A stretch of 64,000 bases of DNA, from positions 559,314 through 623,313 of the forward strand of contig CBDEWB010000018.1 in assembly GCA_965243765.1 (NCBI GenBank), read 5' to 3'. A program made the translations under genes and the position numbers. The DNA comes from Halarcobacter sp. GTDB lineage: Bacteria > Campylobacterota > Campylobacteria > Campylobacterales > Arcobacteraceae. This document shows positions 48,731 to 56,829 of the stretch, in pieces. A model generated the notes under the pieces. The model saw nothing but the letters and a program-made list of their open reading frames with translations, had not been told where the DNA came from and ran no database searches. How positions within the stretch are numbered: the stretch's first letter is position 1; each line of letters begins with the position of its first letter.

Positions 48731-49906
48731 TTATTCCATAGTACCAGCAGGAACATGAACAGTTCCATCCATTATAATTCTAGCAGATCTGCTCATACTT
48801 ACTTTTTCAACTAGAAGCTTTCCATTTTGTTTTGAAATTACAGCTCCCACTTTAATAGCTCCAGAAGGATGTCCAAAAATGACTGTATCTTTATCTGCCC
48901 CACCTGCGGCTATATTTACTAAAGTTCCAGGAATACAAGCAGCAACTCCAATAGCAACAGAAGCTGTTCCCATCATTGCATGGTGTAATTGTTGCATAGA
49001 TAAAGCACGTACGTGTAAATCCATTTTTGAAGCTTTAACTGCTTTTCCACTTGAAGTTATAAAATCAGCTGCTTTTGATACAAAAGCAATTTTTGGAGTA
49101 TGTTGTTTTTCTTCTGCTTCTTTAGGATCTTTTATAAGACCCATTTTAAGTGCACCTGCAATTCTAATAGTTTCAAATCTTTTTAAAGCTTCAGTGTCAG
49201 AATTGATATCACCTTGAAGTTCTCTTCCTGTATATCCAATTTCATCTGCATTTAAGAAGATAATAGGAATTCCAGCTGTAATCATAGTAGCTTTAAATGT
49301 TCCAATTCCAGGAACTTCTAAGTCATCAACTAAATTTCCTGTTGGGAATAATTCTTCACTTGGATTAACAGGAGCAATGAATTCTAGTTTTATTTCTTGG
49401 GCAGGAAAAGCAAGCCCATCGATTTCATAATCACCCATTTCTTTAACCATTCCATTTTCCATAGTAACATAACAAAGAATAGTTTTTTTGATATTTGCTT
49501 GCCATATTCTTACACAACAAACACCATTTTGGGGAACATTATCTACCATTCCTTCATGTATAGCAAAAGGACCAACAGCAGAGCTTAGGTTTCCACAATT
49601 TCCACTCATATCAACAAAATTTTTATCAATTGCAACTTGGCAAAAATAATAATCTACATCATGACCAACAACTTCTGACTTTCCTACTAAGATAGCTTTT
49701 GAAGTACTAGAAGATGCGCCTCCCATACCATCCATTTGTTTTTTATAAACATCTGGTGAACCTACAATTCGTTGAATAAGTTTATCTCTTTTTTTTGTAT
49801 CTTCTTGTGCTTCTTTTGGTAAATCTGCAATATTAAAAAAAATACCTTTAGAAGTTCCACCTCTCATATATGTTGCTTTTACTTTAAATTGTGGTTCATA
49901 ACTCAT
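48731..49906 (-). CDS. prpF: 2-methylaconitate cis-trans isomerase
   Basis: YMRGGTSKG, SGNCGNL, HHAMMGT, GHPSG, SRSAR. Confidence 0.95.
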   Translation of the reverse strand: MSYEPQFKVKATYMRGGTSKGIFFNIADLPKEAQEDTKKRDKLIQRIVGSPDVYKKQMDGMGGASSSTSKAILVGKSEVVGHDVDYYFCQVAIDKNFVDMSGNCGNLSSAVGPFAIHEGMVDNVPQNGVCCVRIWQANIKKTILCYVTMENGMVKEMGDYEIDGLAFPAQEIKLEFIAPVNPSEELFPTGNLVDDLEVPGIGTFKATMITAGIPIIFLNADEIGYTGRELQGDINSDTEALKRFETIRIAGALKMGLIKDPKEAEEKQHTPKIAFVSKAADFITSSGKAVKASKMDLHVRALSMQQLHHAMMGTASVAIGVAACIPGTLVNIAAGGADKDTVIFGHPSGAIKVGAVISKQNGKLLVEKVSMSRSARIIMDGTVHVPAGTME

Positions 49907-49964
49907 TAAATATCCTTTAAAAAAATGTATACAAAAATCTTTTTAATTTCTTTATATAGTTTTA

Positions 49965-52571
49965 TTATTTACTAGCTACGAAATCTTTAGCAAATTTTTG
50001 TAAGATTCCACCAGCATTATATACTTCAACTTCAGCAGAAGTATCTAATCTACAAGTAACAGGAATATTTATAACTTCCCCATTAGCTCTTGTCATGATA
50101 ACGTTTAAATCACCTCTTGCTTTAATTTCACCAGAAACTTCATAAGATTCAAATCCATCAATATTATAAGTATGTCTAGTATCTCCATTTTTAAATTGTA
50201 ATGGTAAAACTCCAATTCCAACAAGATTTGTTCTATGAATTCTCTCAATTGATTCAGCAATTAAAACTTCAACACCAGCAAGTCTAATACCTTTAGCCGC
50301 CCAATCCCTAGAAGACCCTTGCCCATAGTTAGTTCCAGCTATTATGATTAATGGTTGTTTTCTTTCCATATATGTTTCAATTGCTTCCCACATTCTACTC
50401 TTTTTACCTTCTGGCATAATAGTAGTTAAAGACCCTTGCTTAGTATCTCCATTTTCATCTTTAACCATTTCATTATATAGTTTTGGATTAGCCAGAGTTG
50501 CTCTTTGAGCAGTATAATGATCCCCTCTATGTGTTGCATAAGAGTTTAAGTCATTTATAGGTAAACCCATTTTAAGACAATATTGTCCTGCAGCACTTTC
50601 AGGTAAAATCGCATTTGATGGTGATAAATGATCAGTAGTGATATTATCAGGAAATACACCTAAAGGTAACATGTTTTTTAAAGCTGGTTTACCCATAAAT
50701 TTATCTTCCCAATAAGGTGGTTTATTTATATATGTACTTTGTCTGTTCCATTTATAAAATGGTGATATTTCTATATCACCTAATACTCTTTTTGCAAACA
50801 TTGGATCATAAATCTTTGCAAACATTTCAGGTCTAACAGAAGCTTTTTCAACTGCATTAATTTCTTCATCACTTGGCCATAAATCTTTTAATATAATTAG
50901 ATTTCCATTTTTATCATTTCCTAAAGAATCCTTTTCAATGTCAAATCTAATAGAACCAGCCAAGGCATAAGCTACAACCAATGGAGGTGATGCTAAAAAT
51001 GCTTCTTTTACATATGGATGAATTCTTCCATCAAAATTTCTATTTCCTGATAAAACAGCAGTTGAATAAATATCTTTATCAATTACTTCTTTTTGAATAA
51101 CAGGATCTAAAGCACCGCTCATACCGTTACAAGTAGTACAAGCAAAACCTACTATTCCAAATCCTAATTTTTCTAATTCAGGAAGAAGTTTAGAGTCTTT
51201 TAAATACTCTTCAACTATTTTAGAACCAGGTGCAAGTGATGTTTTAACCCATGGTTTTCTTTTCAATCCTAATTCATTTGCTTTTTTTGCAACTAAACCA
51301 GCAGCAATAACATTTCTAGGATTTGAAGTATTTGTACATGAAGTAATTGCAGCAATTAAAATTGCACCATCTGGCATATCAGTTTCACCAATTTCAACAC
51401 TAGAATCAGCAATTCCTTCAGCTTTCAGACTTGAAATAGGTACAAGTTTATGAGGTTTAGAAGGACCTGCTAATGATCTTGTAACACTTGATAAATCAAA
51501 TGTTAATTCTCTTGCATATGTAGCTTCGCTTAAAGAACTTGCCCATAAACCATTTGCTTTTGCATAAGCTTCAACTAGTTTAACTTGTTTTGATTCTCTT
51601 CTTGTTAAAGTTAAATAATCTAAAGTTTGTTCATCAATTCCAAACATAGCTGCACTTGCTCCATATTCAGGAGTCATATTAGAAATAGTAGCACGATCTC
51701 CTAAGTTCAAGTACTCTAAACCTTGACCATAGAATTCTAAGTAAGCAGAAATAACATTTTGATCTCGCAAATATGATGTTAAAGTAAGTGCAATATCAGT
51801 TGCAGTAATTCCAGCAGCTCTTTTTCCTACTACATTTATACCTATAATTTCAGGAGTTCTCATATAAGATGGATTTCCAAGCATTACATTTTCAGCCTCT
51901 AATCCACCAACACCAATAGCTAAAACACCAAGTGCATCAACATGAGGGGTATGTGAATCTGTTCCAACTAGTGTATCAGGAGATGCAATTCCATCAACAT
52001 TATGAATAACAGGAGACATTTTTTCTAAGTTGATTTGATGCATAATACCATTTCCTGGAGGAATAACATCTACATTATCAAAAGCTTCTTTTGCCCAGTT
52101 AATAAAGTGGAATCTATCTGCATTTCTTCTATCTTCAATATCTCTATTTTTTTGGAAAGCATCTTTTTCAAATCCACCACACTCAACAGCTAAAGAGTGA
52201 TCAACTATAAGTTGTATAGGAACAACAGGATTAACTTTTTTAGGATCTCCACTAGCATCAGCAATTGCTTCTCTTAAGCCTGCTAAATCTACTAAAGCAG
52301 TAAGTCCTAAAATATCATGTGTAACAACTCTACTTGGGTACCAAGGAAAATCTTGATCAGTTCTTTTTTCAATTAATTGAATAAGTGAATCTTTTAAATC
52401 TTCACTTGGACATTTTCGCAAAAGGTTTTCAGCTAGTACTCTTGAAGTATAGTTAAGTTTAGAAAAACTTCCTTCTTTAATATCTTCAACAGCTGCTTTT
52501 ACATCATAAAAGCTTGTATCAAAACCTTCTAATTTTTTAAGATATTTATCATTTGTCATATTTATATCCAT
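49965..52571 (-). CDS. acnD: Fe/S-dependent 2-methylisocitrate dehydratase
   Basis: VLAENLLR, TDSHT, ITSCTN, CTTCNGMSG, TTDHLSP, QGSSRDWAAK; adjacent to prpF. Confidence 0.95.
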   Translation of the reverse strand: MDINMTNDKYLKKLEGFDTSFYDVKAAVEDIKEGSFSKLNYTSRVLAENLLRKCPSEDLKDSLIQLIEKRTDQDFPWYPSRVVTHDILGLTALVDLAGLREAIADASGDPKKVNPVVPIQLIVDHSLAVECGGFEKDAFQKNRDIEDRRNADRFHFINWAKEAFDNVDVIPPGNGIMHQINLEKMSPVIHNVDGIASPDTLVGTDSHTPHVDALGVLAIGVGGLEAENVMLGNPSYMRTPEIIGINVVGKRAAGITATDIALTLTSYLRDQNVISAYLEFYGQGLEYLNLGDRATISNMTPEYGASAAMFGIDEQTLDYLTLTRRESKQVKLVEAYAKANGLWASSLSEATYARELTFDLSSVTRSLAGPSKPHKLVPISSLKAEGIADSSVEIGETDMPDGAILIAAITSCTNTSNPRNVIAAGLVAKKANELGLKRKPWVKTSLAPGSKIVEEYLKDSKLLPELEKLGFGIVGFACTTCNGMSGALDPVIQKEVIDKDIYSTAVLSGNRNFDGRIHPYVKEAFLASPPLVVAYALAGSIRFDIEKDSLGNDKNGNLIILKDLWPSDEEINAVEKASVRPEMFAKIYDPMFAKRVLGDIEISPFYKWNRQSTYINKPPYWEDKFMGKPALKNMLPLGVFPDNITTDHLSPSNAILPESAAGQYCLKMGLPINDLNSYATHRGDHYTAQRATLANPKLYNEMVKDENGDTKQGSLTTIMPEGKKSRMWEAIETYMERKQPLIIIAGTNYGQGSSRDWAAKGIRLAGVEVLIAESIERIHRTNLVGIGVLPLQFKNGDTRHTYNIDGFESYEVSGEIKARGDLNVIMTRANGEVINIPVTCRLDTSAEVEVYNAGGILQKFAKDFVASK

Positions 52572-52585
52572 TTAGTTTAAATTAA

Positions 52586-52610
52586 TAAAGATGAGCTTTG
52601 CTCATCTTTA
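52586..52610. other. Perfect 11-bp hairpin between prpC and acnD
   Basis: TAAAGATGAGC-TTT-GCTCATCTTTA. Confidence 0.7.
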
Positions 52611-52656
52611 TAGTGTTTGCCAAAGAGGCACTAGAATATTATAAAGTATTTAAGTT

Positions 52657-53805
52657 TTATCTGTCTTCTAGTGGAATAAATTTTAATCCTTCAGGTCCTG
52701 TGTAAGTCGCAGATGGTCTAATGATTTTACCATCTTCTCTTTGCTCAATTACATGTGCACCCCATCCAGTAACTCTTGCTATAATAAAAATTGGAGTAAA
52801 CATATCTGTTGGAATTTTCATTTGATTATATGAAATTGCAGAGAACCAGTCAAGATTTGGGAACATTTTCTTTTGTTCCCACATAATTGTTTCAATTCTT
52901 TCAGCCACATCATACATTAGCATATCATTATTTTCTTCTGCTAAATTTTTAGCAACTTTTTTAATAACTACATTTCTTGGATCACTTGTAGTATAAACAG
53001 GATGTCCAAAACCAATAATAATTTCTTTTTTTGCCATTCTTGCCTTGATGTCAGCCTCTGCTTCATCTGCTGTTGAATATCTTTCTTGAATTCTGAATGC
53101 AACTTCATTGGCTCCACCATGTTTTGAACCTCTTAAAGCTCCAATTGAACCAGTGATACATGAGAACATATCTGAATTTGTTCCAGCAATTACTCTTGAA
53201 GTAAAAGTTGAAGCGTTAAACTCATGTTCTGCATAAAGGATTAAAGATACATGCATGGCTTTTACCCAAGATTCTTTTGGTTTTTCACCATGTAATAAGT
53301 GTAAGAAATGTCCACCAACTGTATCATCATCAGTTACTATATCAATTCTTTTATTATTATACGCAAAGTGGTACCAGTATAAAAGTATAGAAGAAAATGA
53401 TCCCATTAATCTATTAATAATATCTTGTGCAGCAGCTTTTGGATGAGCCTCATCTTCAGATTCAATAGTACCAAGTACTGAACAACCTGTTCTCATAACA
53501 TCCATTGGATGAGAAGTTTTTGGTAGTTGCTCTAATGCAACTTTTACACCATTTGGAATATCTCTAAAAGATCTAAGTTTTTCTTTATATGCTTTTAACT
53601 CTTCAATATTTGGTAATTTTTCATGAACAATTAAATATGCAATCTCTTCAAATTCAGCTTTGTCAGCAAATTCTAAGATGTCATATCCTCTATAATGTAA
53701 ATCATTTCCAGTTTTTCCAACTGTACAAATTGCAGTATTCCCAGCAGATGTGCCTGAAAGTGCAACAGATTTTTTTGGTTTAAATCCTGTAGTTGTAGTA
53801 CTCAT
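52657..53805 (-). CDS. prpC: 2-methylcitrate synthase
   Basis: [37 protein letters not shown]. Confidence 0.94.
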
Positions 53806-53839
53806 AGTTCTTCCTTGGTATTTATTTTCTTAATTTGAA

Positions 53840-54718
53840 TTATTTAGCTTTACCTTTTGAAAATAGTGTATCCATCTTATTTTCATATTCATGGTAACCT
53901 AACATATCGTATAATTCCATTCTAGTTTGCATAATATCTAACGTACCTTCTTGTGTACCTTTCTCTCTTAAGTCTTGATATACAGTTAAAGCGGCTTTGT
54001 TCATTGCTCTAAAGGCTGATAATGGATATAAAACCATTGAAATTCCAACTAAACCTAATTCTTCAGTAGTAAACATTGGAGTTGAACCAAACTCAGTAAT
54101 ATTTGCTAGTACTGGAACTTTGATTACATTTGTGAACTCTTTGTACTCTTTAAGTGTATGAATTGCTTCTGCAAAAATCATATCAGCTCCTGCTTCAACA
54201 TAAGCTAATGCTCTGTCAATTGCAGCTTGTTGACCTTCACTAGCATGAGCATCAGTTCTAGCCATAATAACAAAATCAGGATCTGTTTTTGCATCAACAG
54301 CAGCAATAATTCTATCACACATTTCTTGAGTTGAAACTAACTTTTTATTAGGTCTGTGTCCACATCTTTTTGCAGCAACTTGATCTTCAAGATGAATTCC
54401 AGCAGCTCCAGCTTTAGTCATTTCTCTTACAGTTCTTGCAATATTAAATGCATGTCCCCAACCAGTATCAGCATCAACTAATAATGGAACATCAGTAATA
54501 GAAGTAATTCTTCTAATATCAATACAAACATCTTCTAACATAGTCATACCTAAATCAGGTAAACCGTAAGATGAATTTGCAACACCTGCGCCTGAAAGGT
54601 ATAAGGCTTTATAACCTACTTTTGTAGCTTGTAATGCTGAATATGCATTTACTGCACCAACAATTTGTAAAGGAGCCTCTTCATTTAATGCGTCTCTAAA
54701 TATTTTTCCTGCGCTCAT
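53840..54718 (-). CDS. prpB: Methylisocitrate lyase
   Basis: [25 protein letters not shown]. Confidence 0.96.
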
Positions 54719-54826
54719 ATATATCCTTCATGTTTTTATTTAGGTAAATTATACAAGAGTTTAATATAAATTGATTGTATAGTTTTTGTTTTAGAAATTA
54801 CAATTTTTTTACAAAAAAATGATTTT

Positions 54827-54867
54827 GTACAATATTTGGTCTTATGTCTTAAAATGGTACAATATTT
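54827..54867 (+). promoter_or_regulatory. Candidate operator or tandem promoter: GTACAATATTT repeated at 30-bp spacing
   Basis: GTACAATATTT at 54827-54837 and 54857-54867 in the prpB/regulator divergent region. Confidence 0.5.
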
Positions 54868-54892
54868 CAAATGTTTTGCTAGGGTTATAATT

Positions 54893-55870
54893 ATGACACA
54901 TAAGAATGGAATAGAAAAATTTATAGAGATTTTTAAACGATCAAATTTAAGCATATCAAAGTTTGCATCTTTAATACAAAAAGATAGAAGAACTGTTACT
55001 TCATGGATTGATAATATAGCAGATATTGAACCAAATGAGAGTGTTAAAGATAAAATCTGTAATATCTTTCGATATCCTGATTTTATTTGGGAAGATGGTT
55101 GTAGCGGGGAAGAGTTTATCAAATCAATTACTCAAATTCCACAAAAAGAAGTAAGAATTATTGATGAAGACTATTATGATAGATTAAAATATATTATGGA
55201 GATAGAGAAAAATAGAAGGTTTGTAATTCAAGCTCAATTTCCAGGACCAATGTATAGAGATACTGCTGTAAAAAAAGTTTATAGATCAAAAACTTCTACT
55301 GAAATTGAAGAGTTAAAACAAGAAAGAATTCAACAAATGTTGAAATATGATTATGATACAACTGAATGGTACTCAATAAAATCTGTATTATCTTTCTGTT
55401 TTGCCACTATTGGTAACTTTTACACAAGAGATGAAAAAATAAAAATATTAGAATTAATGTATGCAATATTTCACAATAATTATAATAAGAAATTATTTTT
55501 CTTTGATTCTTTTTCAAGAAAAATCTATGGAATGGAAACAACATATATTTCAATAAATGTAAAACAAAAAGTTCTATTTTTTAAATCACCAATTGAGTCA
55601 GTTTTTATAGAAATAAGAAATAAAAATTTAGTTGAAAGAATGCATAAATATTACTCTTCACCAGTAGAAGCTCCTTCTCATGTAAATTTTTTAGAATCAG
55701 TTAAAATTATAAAAATATTACAAGATGCTGTAAGATACAACAATAGTATATTGCAAGCTTATGAGATTATTAATAGAACTACAGACTATGGAGAGCTTTT
55801 TTATAATAATCTTAGTATTGATTTACAAAAAGAGCTTACTCATCCAAAAACTGGACAAAAGAGGAACTAA
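54893..55870 (+). CDS. Uncharacterised protein with XRE-like HTH; candidate prp regulator
   Basis: SISKFASLIQKDRRTVTSWID helix-turn-helix pattern; about 250-aa unassigned C-terminal domain; start placed at ATG 54893. Confidence 0.65.
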   Translation: MTHKNGIEKFIEIFKRSNLSISKFASLIQKDRRTVTSWIDNIADIEPNESVKDKICNIFRYPDFIWEDGCSGEEFIKSITQIPQKEVRIIDEDYYDRLKYIMEIEKNRRFVIQAQFPGPMYRDTAVKKVYRSKTSTEIEELKQERIQQMLKYDYDTTEWYSIKSVLSFCFATIGNFYTRDEKIKILELMYAIFHNNYNKKLFFFDSFSRKIYGMETTYISINVKQKVLFFKSPIESVFIEIRNKNLVERMHKYYSSPVEAPSHVNFLESVKIIKILQDAVRYNNSILQAYEIINRTTDYGELFYNNLSIDLQKELTHPKTGQKRN

Positions 55871-55884
55871 ATAAAAGGTATCAT

Positions 55885-56829
55885 ATGAAAATTGTAATTT
55901 TAGATAGAGCAACTTTAGGTTTTGATATAAATGTTGATGTCTTTAATAGTTTAGCAAATGTAACCTCTTATGATGTAACTTTTGCTCATCAAACAAAAGA
56001 TAGAATAAAAGATGCAGATATTGTAATCACAAATAAAGTATTAGTTAAAAAAGATGAACTTCAAGATTCATCTGTAAAACTTATTTGTATTAGTGCAACT
56101 GGTATGAATAATGTAGATTTAGAATTTGCAAAAGAAAATAATATTGAAGTAAAAAATGTAGCAGGGTATTCTACTTCTTCAGTAGTACAACTATCTTTTG
56201 CAATGATTTTCCATTTTGTAGAAAAATTAAACTATTATAAAAAATATGTAGATGATGGGAAATGGCAAAAATCAGTAATTTTTACTCATATAGATAAACC
56301 TTTTTATGAATTAGATGGAAAAAGACTTGGAATTATTGGACTTGGAAGTATTGGCTCAAACTTAGCAAAAAAAGCAAAAGCTTTTGCTTGTGAAGTAGTA
56401 TATTATTCAACTTCAGGAAAAAACTCAAATAGCGAATATACAAGAGTGAAACTTGACGAATTACTTAAAACTAGTGATATCATAAGTATTCATTGTCCCC
56501 TAAATGAGAGTACTAAAAATTTATTAAATTATAAAAATATGAAAAATATCAAAAAAGGTGCTATTTTACTAAACCTTGGACGTGGTGGAATTATAAATGA
56601 AGATGCTTTAGCAAAAATCATAGATTCACAAGAGATATACTGTGGTATAGATGTAGTATCAAAAGAACCAATAGCAAAATCAAATCCTTTATTAAATATT
56701 AAAAATAAAGAGCAGTTAGTTTTAACTCCTCATATAGGTTGGGCAAGTATTGAAGCTAGAATTAGACTTATAAAAATGGTAGCTGAAAATATTGAGAATT
56801 TTATACAAGAATACAAAAATCTGACTTAA
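55885..56829 (+). CDS. D-2-hydroxyacid dehydrogenase
   Basis: ATGMNNVD, GIIGLGSIG, SIHCPLN, NLGRGG, DVVSKEP, TPHIGWAS. Confidence 0.92.
   Translation: MKIVILDRATLGFDINVDVFNSLANVTSYDVTFAHQTKDRIKDADIVITNKVLVKKDELQDSSVKLICISATGMNNVDLEFAKENNIEVKNVAGYSTSSVVQLSFAMIFHFVEKLNYYKKYVDDGKWQKSVIFTHIDKPFYELDGKRLGIIGLGSIGSNLAKKAKAFACEVVYYSTSGKNSNSEYTRVKLDELLKTSDIISIHCPLNESTKNLLNYKNMKNIKKGAILLNLGRGGIINEDALAKIIDSQEIYCGIDVVSKEPIAKSNPLLNIKNKEQLVLTPHIGWASIEARIRLIKMVAENIENFIQEYKNLT

What the first reader, a model, noticed from the sequence alone, without database searches (positions are those of the whole stretch)
54893..55870. Candidate new type of methylcitrate-cycle regulator
The gene is divergent from prpB-prpC-acnD-prpF, where regulators usually sit. 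Known prp regulators are sigma54-type PrpR, GntR-type and ScfR/PccR-type proteins; this one shows no GAFTGA or GntR signature. It has an XRE-like HTH and a C-terminal domain (ERIQQML..TEWYSIKSVL..EKIKILELM) that loosely recalls DUF5753-type domains. Inferred: it senses a propionate-derived metabolite.
Basis: inference. Interest (0 to 1): 0.62.

Follow-up and report, generated by a model that had tools for sequence, protein, structure and literature searches.

The report
New-family regulator of the methylcitrate operon
A 325-residue DNA-binding protein with a previously undescribed sensor domain sits head-to-head with the propionate-detoxifying methylcitrate genes in nearly every Arcobacter and Sulfurospirillum genome that has them, so it is very probably their dedicated, so far unstudied regulator.

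Summary
The ORF at 54893-55870 (+) is real. It lies 174 bp head-to-head with prpB-prpC-acnD-prpF. It matches no Pfam, NCBIfam or PDB sequence.

Linkage:
- In 184 Arcobacteraceae genomes, 127 hold both the gene and prpB.
- In 125 of those 127 the two genes share a contig and are always divergent; 116 gaps are 168-193 bp.
- Homologues of 50-59% identity in Sulfurospirillum are divergent from prpE-prpB-prpC.
- The gene stays at the head of the operon whether prpB, prpE or prpD comes first.
- No regulator-bearing genome was found to lack prp where the contig allowed a test.

Anatomy:
- The N-terminus is an XRE-type HTH. This shows only at family-profile level.
- The C-terminal domain of about 240 residues gives a confident model (pLDDT 86.5). 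It has only weak phospholipase-D-like fold matches and no HKD motif.

Sites:
- The shared control region carries conserved TTGTAYAA boxes, about 23-fold enriched.
- Two regulator-less prp operons lack these boxes.
- The best composite site elsewhere in this genome lies upstream of acnB, and that site is conserved in related contigs.

Verdict: a new family of prp regulator is well supported by comparative genomics. The ligand and the sign of regulation remain untested. The scan noted the same idea on another genome (e1-5271533).

The parts
54893..55870 (+). Regulator gene, 325 aa plus stop; single copy in the genome
   Evidence: ORF and translation. One match in the own genome. 78-96% identical across Arcobacteraceae.
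54893..55132 (+). N-terminal XRE-type helix-turn-helix region, residues about 1-80. HTH core is SISKFASLIQKDRRTVTSWIDN; DRRT..SW is invariant in the clade.
   Evidence: Five short helices in the model, with low pLDDT. Family-profile hits to XRE domains. Invariant columns.
55142..55867 (+). C-terminal putative sensor domain, residues 84-325, alpha/beta. No Pfam family, no HKD motif. Family-wide conserved E105, R109, F116, P117, R145, E158, Y160, F168.
   Evidence: AF2 pLDDT 86.5, pTM 0.85. Only weak PLD-superfamily fold matches. Conserved columns. No H.K....D.
54719..54892 (.). Shared 174-bp divergent control region between prpB and the regulator
   Evidence: Length nearly fixed: 168-193 bp in 116 of 125 genomes. 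Block-wise conservation across about 15 genera.
54748..54756 (-). Box A. Reads TTGTATAAT on the minus strand; a likely -10 of the prp promoter, 29 nt upstream of the prpB ATG.
   Evidence: Sequence. Conserved in alignment. Promoter role is inferred.
54775..54789 (+). Box B. TTGTATAG followed 11 bp later by TTGT. It lies in the -35 zone of the inferred prp promoter.
   Evidence: C18:614088 = window 54775. 11-bp spacing peak.
54797..54804 (+). Middle box ATTACAAT
   Evidence: Conserved as aATACAAtt in most genera.
54825..54843 (+). Box C. Perfect palindrome TTGTACAA, then TTGG(T)TCTT 11 bp on. It is the most conserved block (ATGTACAATATTTGTTCTTATG).
54855..54863 (+). Box D. TGGTACAAT, an extended -10-like element 30 nt upstream of the regulator ATG.
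   Evidence: Promoter role is inferred.
48731..54718 (-). Presumed target operon prpB-prpC-acnD-prpF (AcnD/PrpF-type methylcitrate cycle)
   Evidence: NCBIfam equivalog hits: PrpB 516 bits, PrpC 678, AcnD 1500, PrpF 601.

Best explanation
The gene encodes a one-component transcription factor dedicated to the methylcitrate (prp) genes of Arcobacteraceae and Sulfurospirillaceae.

Proposed mechanism:
- An N-terminal XRE-type helix-turn-helix binds repeated TTGTAYAA boxes in the 174-bp region it shares with prpB. The boxes are phased at about 10-11 bp multiples.
- Two boxes coincide with the likely -10 hexamers of the two divergent promoters. Others sit in the -35 zones.
- A C-terminal domain of about 240 residues, from an undescribed family, is the sensor. 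It probably binds a propionate-derived metabolite: propionyl-CoA, 2-methylcitrate or 2-methylisocitrate.
- My preferred reading (about 45%) is a repressor that also represses itself and is released by the metabolite. An activator or dual regulator is nearly as likely.
- The regulon probably also includes acnB, which supplies the hydration step missing from the AcnD/PrpF route, and/or the fatty-acid-CoA ligase gene divergent from acnB.

Shown: gene, neighbours, linkage, domain limits, conserved boxes.
Inferred: DNA binding to those boxes, the ligand, and the sign of regulation.
For: Linkage:
- 127 of 184 Arcobacteraceae genomes hold both genes. In 125 they share a contig, always divergent, and 116 gaps are 168-193 bp.
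- Genera without prpB lack the regulator too: g24 0/11, g25 0/5, g31 0/3, g38 0/5.
- The two 'regulator-only' genomes are contig-end artefacts. G131 shows prpE next to the gene (L061).
- 76 of 80 named loci, including Sulfurospirillum at 50-59% identity, have a prp gene head-to-head. The other 4 are cut by contig ends.
- The gene stays at the operon head with prpB, prpE or prpD first.

HTH. The recognition helix DRRT..SW is invariant.

Boxes:
- Conserved across genera.
- GTACAA/TTGTAC occurs at 17.3 per kb in 76 intergenic regions against 0.76 per kb in the rest of the same loci.
- Helical phasing.
- Absent upstream of the two regulator-less prp operons examined.
- The best composite site in the genome is upstream of acnB. 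Comparable box clusters (>=3 GTACAA/TTGTAC half-sites) occur in 15 of 17 related acnB loci and 0 of 15 more distant ones.
Against:
- The protein itself passes no HTH model, and the HTH part of the model has low confidence.
- The genomes are related, so the counts overstate independent support.
- The boxes resemble -10 hexamers (TACAAT/TATAAT), so part of their conservation may be promoter sequence.
- Nothing shows that this protein, rather than another factor, binds them.
- One genus (3 genomes) runs a prp operon without the gene.
- Repression of acnB, the main TCA aconitase, would be odd. This weakens the repressor reading.
- A. butzleri, which has the operon, reportedly does not grow on propionate (PMC2147049), so the inducing signal is unclear.
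Confidence: 0.72

Rival explanations
1. Same protein, same sites, opposite sign. It is a metabolite-dependent class-II-type activator of prp, of its own gene and of acnB, in the way lambda CI at OR2 activates PRM.
For: A TTGTAYA box sits about 20-25 nt upstream of the -10-like hexamer, in the -35 zone, at all three inferred promoters. Campylobacterota promoters generally lack a -35 consensus (own knowledge). Most characterised prp regulators are activators: sigma54 PrpR and Mtb PrpR (PMC3420887). Boosting acnB when the cycle runs makes physiological sense.
Against: The promoters carry good -10 elements (TATAAT; TGGTACAAT) that should fire unaided in these bacteria. Boxes A and D overlap those -10 hexamers. 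The regulator-less genus keeps a working-looking operon with a plain TGTTATAAT promoter and no boxes. That outcome is the easy result of losing a repressor.
Confidence: 0.3
2. It is a regulator of something else, and the prp adjacency is inherited synteny. The TTGTAYAA boxes belong to promoters or to another, more global factor.
For: All evidence is comparative and the genomes are kin. The boxes look like -10 hexamers. In this window a D-2-hydroxyacid dehydrogenase gene follows 14 bp downstream with no terminator.
Against: Adjacency survives replacement of the first operon gene (prpB, prpE, prpD) and of prpC by a 43-46% identical type. It also survives the split between two families. Gene and operon are lost together in several genera. 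The dehydrogenase is adjacent in only about a dozen of 76 loci. Composite sites are rare in the genome, so a global factor is unlikely.
Confidence: 0.1
3. It is not a transcription factor but an accessory or enzymatic protein of the pathway, with a PLD-like domain.
For: The only fold matches of the C-domain are phospholipase-D-superfamily enzymes. The protein itself passes no HTH model.
Against: Neither it nor 25 relatives has an HxK(x)4D motif. Fold matches are weak (TM at most 0.38). The family clearly carries an XRE HTH. The gene is divergent rather than inside the operon. The pathway is enzymatically complete with AcnB.
Confidence: 0.04

Closest known systems
ScfR family (PccR, MccR, RamB; PrpR of Mycobacterium tuberculosis and Corynebacterium glutamicum)
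   Same: XRE-type HTH at the N-terminus. Local control of propionyl-CoA assimilation genes. Autoregulation is reported for Mtb PrpR (PMC3420887, PMC12565409).
   Different: ScfR proteins are about 470 aa, with a COG2856/Peptidase_M78-like middle domain and DUF2083 (own knowledge). None of these is detected here. The protein is 325 aa, and no Mtb PrpR structure appears among the listed (top 50) fold matches.
Sigma54-dependent PrpR of Salmonella/E. coli
   Same: Divergent from the prp operon; pathway-specific.
   Different: No AAA+ sigma54-activator domain, no GAFTGA, no PrpR_N.
GntR-type prp regulators (PmiR of Pseudomonas aeruginosa, PMC9728974; GntR genes beside acnD-prpF operons of Vibrio/Shewanella, own knowledge)
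   Same: Small one-component regulator beside prp genes. PmiR senses 2-methylisocitrate.
   Different: No GntR winged helix and no FCD domain.
TrmB family sugar regulators
   Same: Architecture of a DNA-binding domain plus an effector domain placed in the PLD clan (own knowledge). TrmBL2 was the best PDB match of the full-length model (E 1.5e-3).
   Different: TrmB has a winged helix, not an XRE HTH. There is no sequence match to PF01978 or PF11495. The match was not recovered with the better domain-only model.
Lambda CI / phage-type XRE repressors
   Same: XRE HTH plus a C-terminal domain. Several phased operators lie in a divergent control region, overlapping promoter elements. Likely autoregulation.
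   Different: No peptidase S24 or CI C-terminal domain. Chromosomal metabolic context, with no phage genes nearby.
HTH_31 + DUF5753 regulators of actinomycetes (Scr1-like)
   Same: Similar length and an XRE HTH at the N-terminus.
   Different: The C-terminal domains are unrelated by profile comparison (probability 0.1%). The actinomycete genes are paired with DUF397 genes; this one is not.

Membership tests
XRE (Cro/C1) HTH superfamily | Five-helix HTH domain recognised by HTH_3/HTH_31-type models | tested here: met
   Met at family level only. The protein alone gives no hit at E<=1. It is homologous over residues 29-317 to a wider family (hhalign 99.95%). In that family 8 of 26 members hit HTH_3 (best 1.2e-5). 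The family profile hits solved XRE domains (E 1e-4) and the HTH_31 of DUF5753 proteins (82%).
ScfR / PccR / Mtb-type PrpR | COG2856 (Peptidase_M78/DUF955-like) middle domain and DUF2083 C-terminal domain, about 470 aa | tested here: not met
   No Pfam match at E<=1. 325 aa. No such structure among the listed (top 50) fold matches.
Sigma54-dependent PrpR | Sigma54_activat AAA+ domain with GAFTGA, plus PrpR_N sensor | tested here: not met
   No Pfam or NCBIfam match. GAFTGA absent.
GntR-type prp regulators (PmiR) | GntR winged HTH plus FCD effector domain | tested here: not met
   No Pfam match at E<=1.
DUF5753 (PF19054) | Match to the PF19054 model or profile similarity to its members | tested here: not met
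   No match in the genome at E<=10. 0 of 26 family members match. hhalign C-domain against 8 verified DUF5753 proteins gives probability 0.1%.
TrmB family | TrmB winged helix (PF01978) plus Regulator_TrmB effector domain (PF11495) | tested here: not met
   No sequence match. The TrmBL2 fold match (E 1.5e-3) appears only with the low-confidence full-length model and is absent from the listed (top 50) matches of the domain-only search.
Phospholipase D superfamily | PLD fold | tested here: inconclusive
   PssA, PLD, PLD3/4 and a poxvirus F13-like lipase recur as best matches. Probabilities are 0.82-0.99, but E>=1.4e-2 and TM<=0.38.
Phospholipase D superfamily | Catalytic HxK(x)4D motif | tested here: not met
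   Absent from this protein and from all 26 family members. The nearest string is N198-K-K200-LFFF-D205.

The most novel reading that the evidence does not exclude
The C-terminal 240 residues define a new small-molecule sensor domain. It is possibly a catalytically dead PLD-like fold, and here it reads a methylcitrate-cycle intermediate. The same HTH-plus-sensor family is thinly scattered elsewhere: only 61 representatives among 1.84 billion. Those members lie in other contexts, so they would be unrecognised one-component regulators with other ligands. The Arcobacter/Sulfurospirillum branch would control a small regulon of prp, acnB and a fatty-acid-CoA ligase through TTGTACAA repeats.
Probability: 0.45. 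Interest if true: 0.65.

Novelty: new variant of a known kind. Interest (0 to 1): 0.55.

Why it matters
Propionyl-CoA is toxic, and the methylcitrate cycle is how many bacteria dispose of it. Its control is known for enterics, pseudomonads, actinomycetes and alpha-proteobacteria, but nothing is known for Campylobacterota. This work gives:
- a specific candidate regulator;
- a predicted operator;
- a predicted small regulon, including the acnB step that the AcnD/PrpF route needs;
- a sensor domain with no described relatives, whose ligand and structure would be new.

The system is compact, at one gene and 174 bp, so it can be tested directly. It could also serve as a propionate or methylcitrate-responsive switch.

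Tried and rejected
- Pfam, NCBIfam and PDB sequence searches with the protein alone gave nothing. The clade profile against PDB also gave nothing.
- DUF5753 relationship: rejected after fetching real DUF5753 proteins with a bait sequence, verifying them by Pfam and running hhalign.
- TrmB-like effector domain: suggested but not reproduced by the better model. Kept only as a loose analogy.
- BFVD fold search: nothing useful beyond one PLD-like poxvirus protein.
- The sigma70 consensus scan is uninformative in 27% GC DNA (13 found against 10.6 expected).
- The search for related loci with P0122 alone found nothing.
- A word-index search with the distant-family profile returned only 4 proteins.
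- Distant relatives (23-30% identity) are not next to prp genes. They say nothing about this clade's target.
- Other genomic clusters of TGTACA words lie in coding sequence or unrelated places.
- Literature searches found no description of this protein.

Full report
**The object.** Window 54893-55870 (+) is an open frame of 325 codons plus stop. A longer TTG-initiated frame from 54836 exists. Homologues from about 15 genera all begin at the Met of 54893 (M-T/S-Y/F-K...), with a purine-rich stretch 8 nt upstream. On the other strand, 174 bp away, begins prpB (53840-54718). It is followed by prpC (52657-53805), acnD (49965-52571) and prpF (48731-49906). All four score above NCBIfam equivalog cut-offs. 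This is the AcnD/PrpF form of the methylcitrate cycle. The protein itself matches nothing in Pfam or NCBIfam at E<=1 and nothing in PDB by sequence. The genome is 27% GC, belongs to the Arcobacteraceae and is closest to Halarcobacter records.

**Distribution.**
- In the 5.8-billion-cluster collection, 251 proteins match. The best 120 are 78-96% identical, 320-341 aa long, and named 'hypothetical protein' or 'XRE family transcriptional regulator'.
- An exhaustive HMMER scan of 1.84 billion representatives finds only 61 hits at E<=1e-3.
- Three of those are full-length proteins of 45-55% identity. About 22 are full-length proteins of 23-30% identity.
- hhalign ties that distant group to the prp-linked clade over residues 29-317 (99.95%, E 2.7e-38).
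- The family is therefore small, and the prp-linked branch is one tight clade within it.
- Two distant members whose contigs could be read lie next to unrelated genes: LacI/amylase/MFS, and an AAA-ATPase-like gene.

**Linkage to prp genes in Arcobacteraceae.**
- Of 184 genomes, 129 have the gene and 131 have prpB. Both occur in 127.
- In 125 of the 127 the two genes lie on one contig, always divergent. 116 gaps are 168-193 bp.
- The two 'regulator-only' genomes are assembly artefacts. In G131 the contig ends after a head-to-head prpE (L061). In G077 the gene lies 483 nt from a contig end.
- One 'prpB-only' genome (G132) has prpB at a contig start.
- Genera without prpB also lack the gene: g24 0/11, g25 0/5, g31 0/3, g38 0/5. 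In g29 both occur in 6 of 28 genomes, 5 of them the same; the odd ones (G131, G132) are the contig-end cases above.
- The only real exception is one genus of 1.3-1.5 Mb genomes (G101, G102, G104). It has prpE-prpB-prpC-acnD-prpF and no regulator; in G101 a methyltransferase gene lies upstream.

**Linkage beyond frozen synteny.**
- In G015 of the same genus, the first operon gene is prpD.
- In G128, G145 and G025 the first gene is prpE.
- A scan of named genomes returned 80 loci. In Sulfurospirillum and allied MAGs the protein is 50-59% identical to the window's. There it is divergent from prpE-prpB-prpC, some with prpD.
- Within Arcobacteraceae prpC comes in two types, 82-91% and 43-46% identical, while the regulator stays in place.
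- Altogether 76 of 80 loci show a prp gene head-to-head within 700 bp. The other four are cut within about 500 nt upstream.
- The genomes are kin, so these counts are not independent events. The repeated change of operon content around a fixed partner is the stronger argument.

**Anatomy.**
- The full-length AlphaFold model has pLDDT 72.8 and pTM 0.69. It shows five short helices in residues 6-66 at low confidence, then an alpha/beta domain.
- The string S20-ISKFASLIQKDRRTVTSWIDN fits the XRE helix-turn-helix pattern. D31-R-R-T34, S37 and W38 are invariant from Arcobacter to Sulfurospirillum.
- Model-based support exists only at family level. 8 of 26 members hit HTH_3, 5 hit HTH_19 and 4 hit HTH_31. 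The family profile hits solved XRE domains at about 1e-4 and the HTH_31 of actinomycete proteins (82%).
- A model of residues 84-325 alone was built from 32 sequences read from fetched loci. It is confident: pLDDT 86.5, pTM 0.85.
- That model has seven strands and about ten helices. It has no PDB match at E<=1e-3.
- Its best matches are phosphatidylserine synthase and phospholipase D (E 1.4e-2 to 2.2e-2, probability 0.95-0.99, TM 0.33-0.38).
- PLD3/4 and TrmBL2 appeared with the full-length model. A poxvirus F13-like lipase appeared in BFVD.
- The recurrence points to a PLD-like sandwich, but the scores are too weak to call membership. No HxK(x)4D motif exists in any of 26 members.
- Family-wide conserved residues are E105, R109, F116, P117, R145, E158, Y160, F168, F170 and F193.

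**DUF5753.** A bait sequence retrieved actinomycete plasmid genes. Eight of them were verified as HTH_31+DUF5753, with E from 1e-41 to 1e-53. hhalign then aligned only the HTH. The C-terminal domains are unrelated (probability 0.1%).

**Control region.**
- Alignment of the intergenic DNA from about 15 genera shows conserved blocks separated by free sequence.
- In the window the blocks are: ATTATACAA (54748-56; TTGTATAAT on the prpB strand, 29 nt before the ATG), TTGTATAG (54775-82), ATTACAAT (54797-804), TTGTACAA (54825-32) and TGGTACAAT (54855-63).
- The common core is TTGTAYAA. TTGTACAA is a perfect palindrome.
- In Sulfurospirillum the same boxes stand in front of prpE, more sharply. An example is TTTTGTACAATTTGTTTTTTTTGTACAAAAATTGTACAAT.
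- They also occur in the prpD-first and the Arcobacteraceae prpE-first versions.
- Half-sites GTACAA/TTGTAC occur at 17.3 per kb in 76 intergenic regions and 0.76 per kb in the rest of the same loci.
- Distances between TTGT words peak at 9-11, 20, 29 and 40 bp. This suggests one face of the helix, though relatedness inflates the peaks.
- The two regulator-less operons examined have no such box and a plain TGTTATAAT promoter.

**A probable second target.**
- A genome-wide search for two boxes 10-11 bp apart gives four hits.
- The clearest is TTGTACAATATTTGTACAA at C17:123538. It lies between acnB (NF006690, 1233 bits) and a divergent fatty-acid-CoA ligase gene followed by a thiolase.
- A further TTGTACA lies about 20 nt upstream of a TGGTATAAT in front of acnB.
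- In metagenome contigs, 15 of 17 acnB loci with 76% identity or more carry at least three half-sites in the 330 nt upstream, typically TGTACAA-N3-TTGTACA plus the proximal box. None of 15 loci at 75% or less does.
- AcnB performs the hydration of 2-methyl-cis-aconitate that follows AcnD and PrpF. This is established knowledge (Grimek and Escalante-Semerena 2004, cited in PMC2147049).
- Other TGTACA clusters in the genome are in coding DNA or unrelated places.

**Mechanism.**
- Shown: a conserved HTH-bearing protein, its fixed position, conserved phased boxes, and their co-occurrence with the gene.
- Inferred: the protein binds the boxes as an oligomer, and the C-domain binds a propionate-derived metabolite.
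- For a metabolite-released, self-repressing repressor (about 45%): boxes cover both -10-like hexamers, the -10 elements are good, XRE proteins are mostly repressors, and a streamlined genus could lose the gene without further change.
- For an activator (about 30%): a box sits in the -35 zone of all three promoters, as for lambda CI at PRM. Repressing the main TCA aconitase would also be odd.
- A dual role is possible.

**Comparison and novelty.** It works like the known local prp regulators but belongs to none of their families (see membership table). No paper in the library mentions it. The A. butzleri genome paper describes the operon only. It is best filed as a new variant of a known kind: an XRE-type one-component regulator with an undescribed sensor domain and a new regulatory solution for the methylcitrate cycle.

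**Limits.** There are no experiments and no transcript data. The genome search closed and the look-up of sequencing runs closed. AlphaFold DB was not available for fold comparison.

Noticed in passing
window 53840-54718 (prpB) versus 54893-55870: The window's PrpB is 89-94% identical to PrpB of several other genera but 80-84% identical to all but one (G021, 91%) of its own genus. The regulator is closest to its own genus (85-91%). PrpC also occurs in two types in the family (82-91% against 43-46%). This suggests the operon has been exchanged by recombination while the regulator stayed.
   Followed up: partly
own genome C17:123299-123639 (outside the window): The acnB / fatty-acid-CoA ligase divergent region carries TTGTACAATATTTGTACAA and a further TTGTACA next to the acnB -10. 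The arrangement is conserved in related metagenome contigs. It is a probable second target of the regulator.
   Followed up: partly
window 55885-56829: A D-2-hydroxyacid dehydrogenase gene (NF006263, 447 bits) starts 14 bp after the regulator's stop, with no terminator-like site, so it may be co-transcribed. It is directly adjacent in only about a dozen of 76 related loci and lies 0.6-4 kb further away in others.
   Followed up: partly
L038 and L039 (G101, G104): A genus of 1.3-1.5 Mb Arcobacteraceae genomes has prpE-prpB-prpC-acnD-prpF followed by a Zn-dependent dehydrogenase gene. It lacks the regulator and the boxes; in G101 a methyltransferase gene lies upstream.
   Followed up: partly
L045, L048, L050, L044 (Sulfurospirillum loci): The last TTGTACAAT box ends only 5-10 nt before the regulator's ATG. 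The regulator mRNA may therefore be leaderless there, as for lambda cI from PRM.
   Followed up: no
L036 (G183) and L054: The otherwise length-fixed intergenic region carries insertions of about 220 bp. In L054 the insert shows long inverted stretches. Possibly small mobile or RNA elements.
   Followed up: no
G152:C72:4477-4608: Only a 43-residue remnant of the regulator lies 18 bp from an intact prpB. This may be a decayed copy, or an artefact of an 80% complete genome.
   Followed up: no
own genome C20:424790-425000: A repeated unit TTTGTTCCAATTATATGTACA lies upstream of a small ORF beginning MSIPSFRKLELDLEVNKTTLHNWKKNRPKLYKF. This looks like another HTH gene with its own repeats.
   Followed up: no
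L123-L130 (actinomycete plasmids): All eight HTH_31+DUF5753 genes fetched as controls are directly followed by a small gene, annotated DUF397 in seven of the eight (unnamed ORF3 in pA387). This is a fixed pair.
   Followed up: no
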